Positions 8,637 to 9,264 of a stretch of 27,930 nt of DNA are shown one piece after another. Source of the stretch: a virus. Lineage: Duplodnaviria > Heunggongvirae > Uroviricota > Caudoviricetes. The DNA lies in IMG/VR virus record IMGVR_UViG_2529292904_000023; one strand, written 5' to 3'. Position 1 is the stretch's first letter. The number at the start of each line of letters is the position of its first letter. The notes below the pieces were generated by a model. It worked only from the letters and a program-made list of their open reading frames with translations. It ran no database searches and was not told the origin of the DNA. The position numbers and the translations under genes were made by a program.

Positions 8637-8779
8637 TTTGCTACTCCTCATCATATCGACCCTGCAAGGTCGGTTGGTTTCTCCACAAAACAGAGAAGAA
8701 CACCTGCGGTGGCAGCCGCCCGGATGGATTGGGTTATGAGCCCGTCGTCCGGTGATGCTCTTCTCTGTTTTGTAAAAAG

Positions 8780-8822
8780 AGCGGTACCAGCCGTAAGCAA
8801 GTGTACAAACTGGTACCGCCAA
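8780..8822 (-). terminator. Candidate terminator in the leftward leader (tL1-like)
   Basis: Perfect 10-bp arms GCGGTACCAG / CTGGTACCGC around a 19-nt loop, followed on the minus strand by a TCTTTTT run. Confidence 0.4.
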
Positions 8823-9264
8823 AGCAGTGGCTGCTGTGGTGACCGGTGCTGATCTCCGGCTTGCGGTTATTTCAGACTCTCACGGGCGTTTAATTGCCCC
8901 GCCGAACAGCTCTTTTCCGCAATAGCTGCAATGTCTTTCGCGCATCAGCCTGCGCATTCACCACAACGCTGAGAGCACTTAGCCAGTTACGGCACCACAC
9001 TTTGTCGCGGTTCCATAAATGCCCTCATCGTTGCACCCTGGTCTCTTCCCAGGCGTCAAACCGAATCGCCACGCTGGTTAGGCGTCTTATCAGCGTCATC
9101 ATTGACTTGCACATTCCGGCTACCTGGTTTGTTTGCTCGAGCAAGGAGTGGATTGTCCCCTTTAACGTCACCAGACCGCTAACGACGCATGTGCCATACG
9201 CCGTGTTACAACCAAATTTTGTTAGTACCTTGTTTGTATGTCTGGAAAGAAAGATAAAATGAAG

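What the first reader, a model, noticed from the sequence alone, without database searches (positions are those of the whole stretch)
8637..9264. About 620 nt of non-coding, highly structured leader between the operators and the first early-left gene
No convincing ORF (no N-like Arg-rich protein) lies between the OL-like operators and the gene starting at 8636. The sequence has a perfect 14-bp long-range stem (CAAAACAGAGAAGA 8686-8699 with TCTTCTCTGTTTTG 8761-8774) enclosing about 60 GC-rich nucleotides, and next to it a 10-bp-stem hairpin with a U-run on the minus strand. This could be a tL1-type terminator plus a cis-acting RNA (N-independent antitermination of the HK022 put type, or a riboregulator or sRNA).
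Basis: partly seen in the sequence, partly recalled or inferred. Interest (0 to 1): 0.55.

Follow-up and report, generated by a model that had tools for sequence, protein, structure and literature searches.

The report
Structured RNA cassette behind prophage PL
The "empty" 620 bases between this prophage's left operators and its first early gene are a chain of conserved, folded RNA modules, one related to the prophage small RNA STnc100, that other phages carry inside their tRNA gene clusters; their function is still unknown.

Summary
8637-9264 is non-coding. The 14-bp stem is the core of a 20-25-bp helix, and the 10-bp hairpin with its U-run is a conserved intrinsic terminator.

The region is not a plain leader. 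On the minus strand (the PL transcript) it is a mosaic of separately conserved RNA modules:
- a ~170-nt 5' domain (9206-9034);
- hairpin H0 (9033-8964);
- a cloverleaf-shaped four-way junction, "A" (8967-8833);
- the terminator (8819-8773);
- a long-stem three-way junction, "D" (8778-8680), whose inner loop copies the initiator-tRNA anticodon stem-loop.

All three structured modules show compensatory base changes across phages. Modules A and D lie in tRNA arrays of unrelated phages, always on the tRNA strand (73:0 and 22:0).

In phiV10 a real tRNA-Arg sits exactly where module A sits here. In SfV-type prophages the same slot, with the same terminator, holds an RNA that matches Rfam STnc100 at 41 bits (gathering score 47).

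Module A plus the terminator is therefore best read as an STnc100/PasD-superfamily small RNA gene with a hypervariable arm. HK022 put homology is not supported. None of the modules matches any Rfam 15 family. Function is inferred, not shown.

The parts
9265..9303 (.). OL-type operators (two copies of TTGCGN6GCAA), overlapping the inferred PL promoter on the minus strand: -35 TTGCAT 9279-9274, -10 TATCTT 9256-9251, start near 9244.
   Evidence: Exact motif matches at 9265-9279, 9289-9303 and 10072-10086. The promoter hexamers and the start site are my reading of the sequence and are inferred.
9034..9206 (-). 5' leader domain: hairpin Ha, stem J enclosing variable hairpin Hb (loop CCUUG), a possible pseudoknot GCACAU:AUGUGC, hairpin Hd, and hairpin Hc (loop GGAAGAG).
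   Evidence: 23-sequence alignment A2: 97.5% of cells paired, 9 pairs changed on both sides, 0 of 500 shuffles as good. The domain stands alone in P1 between trnI and ban and lies upstream of a real tRNA-Arg in phiV10. No Rfam match.
8964..9033 (-). Hairpin H0: CAACGAUGAGGGCAUUUAUGG ... CUAAGUGCUCUCAGCGUUG, with a variable loop. Its 3' arm abuts the next module.
   Evidence: Predicted. The same arms, with a different sequence (CAACAGGUAAGAGCAUUG / CAGUGCUCUUUCCGUUG) and loops of 40-130 nt, appear in relatives. In phiV10 the 3' arm ends exactly at the 5' end of tRNA-Arg.
8833..8967 (-). Module A, a cloverleaf-shaped four-way junction. It has a 9-bp closing stem GUUGUGGUG/CACCACAGC, a linker AAU, hairpin P2 GCGCA-GGCUGA-UGCGC, a hypervariable arm, and hairpin P3 GCCGG-AGAUCAGCA-CCGGU that abuts the closing stem.
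   Evidence: 86-sequence alignment A1: 95.3% paired, 9 pairs changed on both sides, 0 of 500 shuffles as good. Covariance model R1 scores it at 81 bits. All 73 nearby tRNAs are on the same strand and none opposite. There are 104 unrelated arm types.
8773..8819 (-). Intrinsic terminator: 10-bp stem GCGGUACCAG/CUGGUACCGC with a 19-nt loop, then UCUUUUUAC.
   Evidence: In L005 the homologous hairpin aligns to the terminator of the Rfam STnc100 model. Covarying versions occur in phiV10, L057 and ST64B. A terminator-like hairpin follows A-type elements in 85 of 197 cases, against 35 and 25 in two controls.
8680..8778 (-). Module D, a three-way junction. The inner arm ends in GGG-CUCAUAA-CCC (8744-8731). 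There is also a short variable hairpin.
   Evidence: MFE -51.2 kcal/mol, z -8.4. 44-sequence alignment A3: 96.3% paired, 10 pairs changed on both sides, 6 of them in the long helix. All 22 nearby tRNAs are on the same strand and none opposite. The 14-mer CGGGCUCAUAACCC is identical to the E. coli initiator tRNA (plus direct reading).
8637..8674 (-). Small hairpin GACCUUGCAGGGUC followed by the Shine-Dalgarno GAGGAG (8649-8644), 7 nt before the yfdP start codon (8636-8634).
   Evidence: ST64B and L004 have a different small hairpin at the same place.

Best explanation
The stretch is a promoter-proximal non-coding RNA cassette, transcribed leftward from PL.

Shown:
- It consists of three separately conserved structured RNA modules (5' domain, A, D), hairpin H0 and an intrinsic terminator.
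- The 5' domain, A and D keep their helices through compensatory changes.
- A and D recur in tRNA arrays of unrelated phages, always on the tRNA strand.
- A real tRNA, or a near-STnc100 RNA, occupies module A's slot in relatives.

Inferred mechanism:
- PL transcription first makes a ~470-nt structured RNA. Its 3' part, module A plus the terminator, is an STnc100/PasD-superfamily small RNA. The conserved cloverleaf-shaped scaffold and the terminator hairpin with its U-tail would give stability and Hfq binding. The hypervariable arm would carry target specificity.
- The terminator stops part of the transcription, so it both ends the small RNA and limits entry into yfdP-yfdQ-yfdR and, by analogy with relatives, xis and int beyond them.
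- Transcripts that read through form module D. Its 20-25-bp duplex takes in the U-run and is a likely RNase III site, like the lambda N-leader hairpin. Cleavage there would release the small RNA and give the yfdP mRNA its own 5' end.
For: Strand and RNA nature:
- tRNAs within 1.5 kb are all on the element's strand: 73:0 for A and 22:0 for D.
- One-sided changes in A's closing stem are almost all G-U or U-G on this strand.

Structure:
- Covariation was counted for A, the 5' domain and D. Each had 0 of 500 shuffles reaching the observed pairing and covariation score, and each was far above the slid-partner controls.

Link to STnc100:
- The window's own STnc100 (18449-18657) has the same plan: GCAUGAUGAAU ... 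CCGGGAGGCACCCGG-CAUCAUGC plus a terminator.
- Model R1, built from A, finds the STnc100 core as its best non-self hit in the window (16.1 bits, E 0.03). It also finds the SfV-type leader elements at 32 bits.
- The SfV-type element with the shared terminator matches Rfam STnc100 end to end at 41.2 bits, E 1e-7.
- PasD and STnc100 are reported as related, Hfq-associated prophage sRNAs with different seeds (bioRxiv 10.64898/2026.05.13.724894).

Hypervariable arm: 104 unrelated types sit on one scaffold.

Terminator: terminator-like hairpins are enriched downstream of A, and the terminator covaries across phages.

Position: the cassette starts 35-45 nt downstream of PL in two different immunity types.
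Against: - No transcript data were available. The ends, the processing and Hfq binding are all inferred.
- The window's own element does not match Rfam STnc100 even at E <= 10, and the R1 hit on STnc100 is weak.
- The variable arm is no more structured than shuffled sequence and has no conserved seed. It could be an unconstrained spacer rather than a targeting region.
- The role of the 5' domain is unexplained. It also precedes ban, a Tad2 gene and a tRNA, which suggests a general cis function that this model does not cover.
- RNase III cleavage of D is untested. D-type elements in tRNA arrays have a short closing stem, so the long duplex is not the family's only form.
Confidence: 0.55

Rival explanations
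1. Cis-acting processive antitermination (works like HK022 put or Bacillus EAR). The 5' domain, made first from PL, would bind the elongating RNA polymerase and carry it through the 8775 terminator and through untranslated RNA into the early-left genes.
For: - The 5' domain is promoter-proximal under several unrelated promoters.
- It has invariant loops and a possible pseudoknot, as expected for a binding site.
- It precedes varied cargo: a tRNA, module A, ban and tad2.
- A terminator lies downstream of it, and no N-like gene is present.
Against: - It shows no similarity to putL or putR.
- It occurs only once in the window, with nothing downstream of PR.
- SfV-type prophages have the same terminator, module D and yfdP but no 5' domain.
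- In P1 it lies mid-operon, directly after a tRNA.
Confidence: 0.15
2. tRNA mimicry. Modules A and D would be tRNA-derived RNAs that act through tRNA-handling machinery, either as RNase P/RNase E punctuation marks that cut the transcript, or as decoys for tRNA-targeting host toxins. D would do this through its copy of the initiator-tRNA anticodon stem-loop.
For: - A real tRNA-Arg sits exactly in A's slot in phiV10, with the same flanks.
- A has tRNA-like geometry: a 7-9-bp closing stem, a 2-3-nt linker, a 5-bp arm, a variable arm, and a 5-bp arm abutting the closing stem.
- D-type elements in tRNA arrays end in CAGGCC-G-CCA.
- D shares the 14-mer CGGGCUCAUAACCC with tRNA-fMet (plus direct reading).
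- Both modules are co-oriented with tRNAs.
Against: - ARAGORN and the Rfam tRNA model find nothing.
- There is no canonical T-loop or D-loop.
- CCA is not at a fixed offset after A.
- A's variable arms show no excess of anticodon-like loops: 4, against 0-2 in shuffles.
- The outer pairs of the anticodon-like stem in D are mismatched relative to tRNA-fMet.
Confidence: 0.15
3. No RNA function. The modules would be decaying remnants of a tRNA operon, or small mobile or recombinogenic DNA elements with inverted-repeat ends, spread by phage mosaicism.
For: - The leader is a mosaic with sharp junctions.
- 148 nt are 96.6% identical between this lambdoid prophage and the virulent Klebsiella phage IME207.
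- The two ends of A resemble each other as inverted repeats.
Against: - Compensatory changes keep every helix.
- Orientation relative to tRNAs is strict, at 95:0 overall.
- Mismatches are G-U on one strand only.
- The conserved scaffold persists across gamma-, beta- and alphaproteobacterial prophages while the middle is replaced.
Confidence: 0.1
4. A small protein, such as an N-like antiterminator, is encoded in the region.
For: - Databases annotate hypothetical proteins here: mEp460_036/037, SfII_35 and PGAP 'frameshifted' pseudogenes.
- A 36-codon ORF (8890-9000, minus strand) has an Arg-rich tail.
Against: - No ORF hits Pfam at or near its threshold; the only listing is a weak BHD_3 match at E 0.07, 14 bits against a cut-off of 27.
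- The ORFs span hypervariable segments whose lengths are not multiples of 3.
- The annotated CDSs lie on either strand and differ between records.
- The substitution pattern follows base pairing, not codons.
Confidence: 0.03

Closest known systems
STnc100 (Rfam RF02076) and PasD, Hfq-associated prophage small RNAs of Salmonella and E. coli
   Same: - A multi-branch core closed by ...UGGUGAAU / CACCA..., with the first hairpin right after AAU and the last hairpin abutting the closing stem, followed by a terminator hairpin.
- Prophage-borne and next to tRNA genes.
- An intermediate form in SfV-type PL leaders scores 41 bits on the STnc100 model.
   Different: - The window's element does not reach any score on the STnc100 model.
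- Its P2 and P3 hairpins and their loops differ.
- It has a hypervariable arm.
- It sits in the PL leader rather than between Q and the lysis genes.
- The family extends well beyond enterobacteria.
tRNA genes of phage tRNA arrays
   Same: It has the same slot, strand and flanks as a real tRNA-Arg in phiV10, and a cloverleaf-like arrangement of four helices. Module D carries the initiator-tRNA anticodon stem-loop sequence.
   Different: It has no canonical D-loop or T-loop, no anticodon arm in A and no fixed CCA. It is not detected by ARAGORN or by the Rfam tRNA model.
HK022 putL/putR processive antitermination RNAs
   Same: It is a promoter-proximal structured RNA in a lambdoid phage without N, with terminators downstream.
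   Different: It shows no sequence or structural similarity and occurs as a single copy. The 5' domain is about 170 nt, against about 70 nt for put. Activity is untested.
Lambda PL leader: tL-type terminators and the RNase III hairpin upstream of N (comparison from my own knowledge)
   Same: An intrinsic terminator lies in the early-left leader, and a long duplex lies just upstream of the first gene's ribosome-binding site.
   Different: There is no nut site and no N. The duplex here closes a conserved three-way junction, and that junction also exists as a free-standing element in tRNA arrays.
GOLLD and ROOL, large ornate RNAs of phages that lie near tRNA genes
   Same: It is a phage-borne, multi-helix non-coding RNA of several hundred nucleotides, associated with tRNA genes and of unknown function.
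   Different: There is no Rfam match. The host phyla differ. It is modular: the 5' domain, A and D occur separately.

Membership tests
STnc100 (RF02076) | Score at or above the Rfam gathering threshold (47 bits) | tested here: not met
   Window 8400-9500 gives no STnc100 hit even at E <= 10. The relative in L005 reaches 41.2 bits, E 1e-7, over the full model length.
STnc100 (RF02076) | Architecture: closing stem UGGUGAAU.../...CACCA, internal hairpins, last hairpin abutting the closing stem, 3' terminator | tested here: met
   Compared against the structure line of the window's own STnc100 and the counted pairs of A1. R1 aligns end to end with the STnc100 core at 16.1 bits, E 0.03.
STnc100/PasD | Hfq-bound, trans-acting base-pairing RNA | not testable with these tools
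   Known for PasD and STnc100 only from RIL-seq, as reported in 10.64898/2026.05.13.724894.
tRNA | Canonical cloverleaf with T-loop, D-loop and anticodon loop | tested here: not met
   ARAGORN finds only the three tRNAs at 18088-18339. The Rfam tRNA model gives no hit in 8400-9500 at E <= 10.
tRNA | Encoded 3' CCA after a discriminator base | tested here: not met
   After CACCAC the next base is A in 187 of 197 elements, but CCA sits at offsets 1-3 in only 65 of 197. D-type elements in tRNA arrays do end in G-CCA.
HK022 put RNA | Sequence and two-stem structure similar to putL/putR | tested here: not met
   putL and putR were read from NC_002166. They share no motif with any module here.
HK022 put RNA | Copies downstream of both PL and PR | tested here: not met
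   The 5' domain motifs occur once in the window. R1 finds no copy in the PR operon.
HK022 put RNA | Suppresses termination by binding the RNA polymerase beta' zinc-binding domain | not testable with these tools
   This needs transcription assays.
Intrinsic (Rho-independent) terminator | G+C-rich hairpin directly followed by a U-run on the transcribed strand, conserved in relatives | tested here: met
   Covarying homologues all carry the CUUUUUAC tail, and the hairpin aligns to the STnc100 terminator. The simple scanner missed it because the loop is 19 nt.
RNase III processing site | About two turns (>= 20 bp) of near-perfect duplex | tested here: met
   The helix has 20-25 bp and 96.6% of cells are paired across 44 sequences. 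Cleavage itself is not testable here.
GOLLD / ROOL | Match to the Rfam models | tested here: not met
   No hit in the window or in 10 member loci.

The most novel reading that the evidence does not exclude
Modules A and D, with the 5' domain, would be unrecognised classes of tRNA-shaped phage RNAs that work through the host's tRNA or translation machinery. Module D displays the initiator-tRNA anticodon stem-loop (GGG-CUCAUAA-CCC) on a stable scaffold. It could be a decoy or inhibitor for factors that read that loop, such as the VapC-type toxins of Shigella and Salmonella that cut tRNA-fMet (from my own knowledge), or for the 30S P site. Module A would be a scaffold that presents one of more than 100 interchangeable arms. 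On this reading, phage tRNA arrays contain a hidden layer of non-tRNA effectors, and this prophage expresses two of them as the first products of PL.
Probability: 0.15. Interest if true: 0.85.

Novelty: new variant of a known kind. Interest (0 to 1): 0.62.

Why it matters
- Some match to 8600-9400 occurs in 3083 of 5426 complete E. coli genomes, and 659 carry most of it. In databases it is left blank or given spurious 'hypothetical protein' or 'frameshifted' annotations.
- Three covariation-supported RNA modules absent from Rfam 15 lie here. One links the little-understood STnc100/PasD sRNAs to a much wider, tRNA-array-associated family found in gamma-, beta- and alphaproteobacterial prophages and in P1-like, T1-like and epsilon15-like phages.
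- This gives concrete, testable candidates for three questions: what non-tRNA genes in phage tRNA clusters do; how N-less lambdoid phages of the SfV/mEp460/ST64B type control early-left transcription, which leads to int and xis; and whether phages use tRNA look-alikes against host systems.
- It also flags annotation errors, for example P1 plp and SfII_35.

Tried and rejected
- **put homology.** I fetched HK022 and read putL and putR. They show no resemblance to any module here.
- **nut/boxA reading.** AGUGCUCUUUCC resembles rrn boxA and GCGCA-GGCUGA-UGCGC resembles a boxB hairpin. However, the 'boxA' is the 3' arm of hairpin H0 and covaries with its partner. A subfamily replaces it with AGUUGGCUUUGGGGU paired to the 3' flank.
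- **Known RNA families.** The Rfam gathering and E-value scans of the window and of 10 member loci found nothing over these modules. A literal search of the paper library for their sequences found nothing.
- **Protein coding.** No ORF in the region hits Pfam at or near its threshold.
- **MITE or DNA palindrome.** Rejected because of the strict co-orientation with tRNAs and the one-strand G-U pattern.
- **Anticodon-arm decoys in A's variable arm.** There is no clear excess of anticodon-like loops, and the arms are no more structured than shuffles.
- **A conserved CCA end on A.** Not found.
- **Kissing loops between P2 (GCUGA) and P3 (UCAGC).** They are complementary in 97.7-99% of cells, but the columns are nearly invariant and partly fixed by my search pattern. 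STnc100-type relatives lack the complementarity. It remains a hypothesis.
- **Expression evidence.** Literature searches for ST64B or STnc100 transcripts at this locus turned up nothing usable.
- **A wasted call.** An over-permissive fuzzy search produced only noise.
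Full report
**Context.** The window is an E. coli lambdoid prophage of the mEp460/SfV/cdtI type. Phage mEp460 is 98.9% identical over 8600-9400. The local gene order is:
- yfdR 6720-7283(-), yfdQ 7384-8208(-), yfdP 8274-8636(-);
- the non-coding stretch;
- an S24 cI-type repressor 9359-10051(-) with its own terminator at 9338-9321;
- a cro-like gene 10149-10409(+).

The operator motif TTGCGN6GCAA occurs exactly at 9265-9279 and 9289-9303, and on the other side of the repressor at 10072-10086. 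A leftward promoter overlapping the left operators is a reasonable inference (-35 TTGCAT 9279-9274, -10 TATCTT 9256-9251). The promoter is inferred, not shown.

**The observation.**
- The 14-bp perfect stem extends to 25-nt arms, 8685-8709 / 8749-8773.
- The 10-bp perfect stem is 8781-8790 / 8810-8819.
- The U-run follows on the minus strand.
- The minus-strand RNA 8779->8673 folds at -51.2 kcal/mol, z = -8.4. The whole leader has z = -4.9.
- No ORF in the region hits Pfam at or near its threshold; one plus-strand ORF has a weak BHD_3 listing, E 0.07.

**The leader is a mosaic.** BLAST against phages and against 5,426 E. coli genomes shows that pieces of the region occur separately in very different phages, nearly always unannotated.
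- 8832-8980 is 96.6% identical to the virulent Klebsiella phage IME207 and 95% identical to P1-like plasmids, where it lies between tRNA genes.
- 9040-9217 matches P1, P7, D6 and SJ46 at about 78%. In P1 it lies between trnI and ban.
- 8961-9204 matches phiV10 at 82%.
- 8673-8779 matches Salmonella ST64B at 85%.
- 3083 of 5426 E. coli genomes carry some part, and 659 carry most of it.

**Module A (8967-8833, minus strand).** Pattern scans of IMG/VR and of GTDB genomes recovered about 200 distinct elements. They have two conserved ends and an unrelated middle:

5' (c)AGUGCUCUUUCCGUU | GUGGUGAAU GCGCA-GGCUGA-UGCGC | 18-182 variable nt | AAGCCGG-AGAUCAGCA-CCGGC CACCAC | A...

Evidence for an RNA structure:
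- On an 86-sequence alignment (A1) the proposed structure is a 9-bp closing stem, hairpin P2, and hairpin P3 abutting the closing stem. It is 95.3% paired, 9 pairs change on both sides, and no shuffle of 500 does as well.
- P2 occurs as GCGCA/UGCGC, GCACA/UGUGC, GCGUA/UACGU and GCGAA/UUCGC.
- One-sided changes in the closing stem are almost all G-U or U-G on this strand.

Evidence for the transcribed strand: ARAGORN finds 73 tRNAs within 1.5 kb of 125 instances, all on the element's strand and none opposite. The functional strand is therefore the PL-transcript strand.

Distribution: the family reaches many Enterobacterales genera, Aeromonas, Marinobacterium, Moraxellaceae, Janthinobacterium, Massilia and Undibacterium (Betaproteobacteria), and some Alphaproteobacteria. 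It is often wedged between tRNA genes. 73 of 107 pattern hits in GTDB genomes also carry the independent 3' block.

The middle segment:
- It falls into 104 unrelated types.
- Its lengths are not multiples of three.
- It is no more structured than shuffled sequence.
- It shows no clear excess of anticodon-like loops.

**What module A is related to.** Three observations bear on this.
- In phiV10, a promoter and a ~330-nt leader homologous to window 9204-8961 are followed by a genuine tRNA-Arg(UCU) exactly where the window has module A. The same 3' flank (AAUCACGCCUNAGGACCGUGAU) and a homologous terminator follow. The geometry of A is tRNA-like: closing stem, 2-3-nt linker, 5-bp arm, variable arm, and a 5-bp arm stacked on the closing stem. 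However, ARAGORN and the Rfam tRNA model do not detect it, and a CCA end is not conserved.
- The window's own STnc100 (18449-18657, just after three tRNAs) has the same plan and even the same UGAUGAAU / CAUCAUGC closing motif.
- PL leaders of SfV-type prophages (L004, L005, SfII, ST64B) carry an intermediate form: GUUGUGGUGAAUGCGG ... CACCGGGAGGCACCCGG-CACCACAAC. It is followed by the same terminator and module D as in the window.

The covariance model R1, built from A, scores the window element at 81 bits, the P1 copy at 80, the SfV-type elements at 32, and the STnc100 core at 16.1 bits (E 0.03). The last is the best non-self hit in the window. Conversely, Rfam's STnc100 model aligns end to end, terminator included, with the SfV-type element at 41.2 bits (gathering score 47, E 1e-7).

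I conclude that module A plus the terminator is a diverged paralogue of STnc100. It is outside the family as Rfam defines it but within the same superfamily. STnc100 and PasD are described as related, Hfq-associated prophage sRNAs with different seed regions and unknown function (bioRxiv 10.64898/2026.05.13.724894).

**The terminator (8819-8773).**
- The stem differs but stays self-complementary in phiV10 (GGCGGUGAU.../...AUCACCGCC), L057, SfV-type prophages and ST64B (GUCGGCGUC.../...GACGCCGAC). The tail is always CUUUUUAC.
- A terminator-like hairpin with a U-run lies within 130 nt downstream of 85 of 197 A-type elements. The two controls give 35 and 25.

**The 5' domain (9206-9034) and hairpin H0 (9033-8964).** Upstream of A, many loci share a second conserved RNA. 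On a 23-sequence alignment (A2) I counted these helices:
- hairpin Ha;
- stem J, enclosing a variable hairpin with loop CCUUG;
- hairpin Hd;
- hairpin Hc, with loop GGAAGAG;
- a possible pseudoknot, GCACAU:AUGUGC.

Together they are 97.5% paired, 9 pairs change on both sides, and none of 500 shuffles reaches the observed pairing or covariation score. The pseudoknot columns are invariant and were partly fixed by my search terms, so they say nothing either way.

Context of the 5' domain:
- It stands alone in P1 between trnI and ban, and before a Tad2 gene in P1-like plasmids.
- It precedes A in 33 distinct loci, a tRNA in phiV10, and neither in 28 loci.
- Upstream of it lies either tRNA-Ile, or a TTGACA-N17-TAnnnT promoter overlapped by a TTACC...GGTAA palindrome, or the PL of two different lambdoid immunity types 35-45 nt away.
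- It occurs once in the window.

Hairpin H0 covaries between subfamilies. Its loop is variable and sometimes holds T-arm-like hairpins. Its 3' arm is the sequence that at first looked like boxA.

**Module D (8778-8680).** A scan with its inner motif gave 145 instances, 95 of them distinct. All 22 neighbouring tRNAs are on the same strand. On 44 sequences (A3) the structure is 96.3% paired. In the long helix, 6 of 20 pairs change on both sides, for example C-G 20 / A-U 19 and G-C 32 / C-G 12.

There are two contexts:
- directly after the CUUUUUAC tail of a terminator and before yfdP or yfdR in PL leaders of E. coli, Shigella and Salmonella phages;
- directly after tRNA-Arg, between Q and the lysis genes in Klebsiella phages, where the closing stem is short and ends in ...CAGGCC-G-CCA.

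The inner arm ends in GGG-CUCAUAA-CCC. The 14-mer CGGGCUCAUAACCC (8744->8731) is identical to the anticodon stem-loop of the E. coli initiator tRNA. I checked my recalled tRNA-fMet sequence against 5,426 genomes, and it is present in 5,425 with a median of four places per genome, annotated tRNA-Met.

Because D lies downstream of the terminator, it cannot regulate that terminator. Its duplex of 20-25 bp, which takes in the U-run, meets the size requirement of an RNase III substrate.

**How it most likely works.**

Shown:
- The region has a transcribed-strand orientation.
- All modules have conserved structure.
- Module A is related to STnc100.
- The terminator is conserved.
- The cassette lies next to the promoter.

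Inferred:
- PL first produces a structured RNA whose 3' part is an STnc100-like small RNA ended at about 8775.
- The terminator limits flow into yfdP and the genes beyond it.
- Read-through transcripts fold module D, which is processed, probably by RNase III. That separates the small RNA from the mRNA.

The 5' domain remains unexplained. Its promoter-proximal position and varied cargo keep a put-like or EAR-like antitermination role open. I rate that at about 0.15, because SfV-type phages manage the same terminator without it, there is no PR-side twin, and it does not resemble put.

**Novelty.** None of the three modules matches any Rfam 15 family. A literal search of the paper library for their sequences found nothing. 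Module A extends a known sRNA superfamily into a much broader group associated with tRNA arrays and carrying a hypervariable arm. The 5' domain and module D appear to be undescribed motifs. I file the whole as a new variant of a known kind, namely phage-borne structured small RNAs. The more novel tRNA-mimic or decoy reading is kept as a minority possibility.

Noticed in passing
window 11310-11386 and 11408-11495 (+): Rfam isrK and C4 antisense RNA (P1/P7 immI type) lie in the PR operon, inside the mechanical 381-codon ORF 10950-12095 that mEp460 annotates whole as 'regulatory protein Rha'. The 5' third of that ORF is probably RNA genes, not coding sequence.
   Followed up: no
window 18088-18717: Three tRNAs (Met-CAU, Arg-UCG, Arg-UCU) are followed by STnc100 (175.6 bits). 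AgvB lies on the opposite strand, starting at the base after STnc100 ends.
   Followed up: partly
window 8832-8979; L007 2501-2648; L002 2998-3146: 148 nt, including the 'variable' arm, are 95-97% identical between this lambdoid prophage, the virulent Klebsiella siphovirus IME207 and P1-like plasmids. The surrounding DNA is unrelated, so this points to recent exchange of a small RNA cassette between very different phages.
   Followed up: partly
L009 (phage P1) 3776-3879 and 3493-3618: P1 carries a strong A-type element (80 bits) and a second, weaker one (29 bits) between trnT and tciA in the ban operon. The annotated 'plp' CDS (3846-4223, opposite strand) overlaps the first element and tRNA-Thr, starts at TTG and translates poorly. 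It is probably a misannotation.
   Followed up: partly
L001 3110-3253 and 3295-3663; L006 2457-2795; L004 2975-3294; L005 3052-3362: The database CDSs mEp460_036/037 and SfII_35, and the PGAP 'frameshifted hypothetical protein' pseudogenes, lie over the RNA modules, on either strand.
   Followed up: partly
L008 (phiV10) ~2830-2870; L057, L087, L279, L283: A TTGACA-N17-TACCTT promoter, overlapped by the palindrome TTACCTTTNAGGTAA, sits just upstream of the 5' domain in epsilon15-like and other phages. It looks like an operator for an unidentified repressor.
   Followed up: no
L002 787-960 and L003 2928-3101: In P1-like plasmids the 5' domain follows tRNA-Ile and precedes a Thoeris anti-defence Tad2 gene. 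The whole neighbourhood is a tRNA and anti-defence island.
   Followed up: no
L110, L194 and L163 (loop of hairpin H0): Some H0 loops contain canonical T-arm-like hairpins (GCGGUUCGAUUCCGC, CUGGUUCAAUUCCAG). These are either remnants of tRNAs or functional T-loop motifs.
   Followed up: no
window 8906-8916 and 8775-8785: AAAAGAGC in module A's variable arm is complementary to GCUCUUUU, the end of the terminator stem plus the U-run (11 nt, 91%). It is probably chance, but it could compete with terminator folding.
   Followed up: no
L005 3638-3913 (-): SfV/e14-type prophages have a 91-aa ORF (MKVQILNNNCEVVW...) between PL and the STnc100-like element, where the window has the 5' domain. Its function is unknown and it is not Arg-rich.
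   Followed up: no
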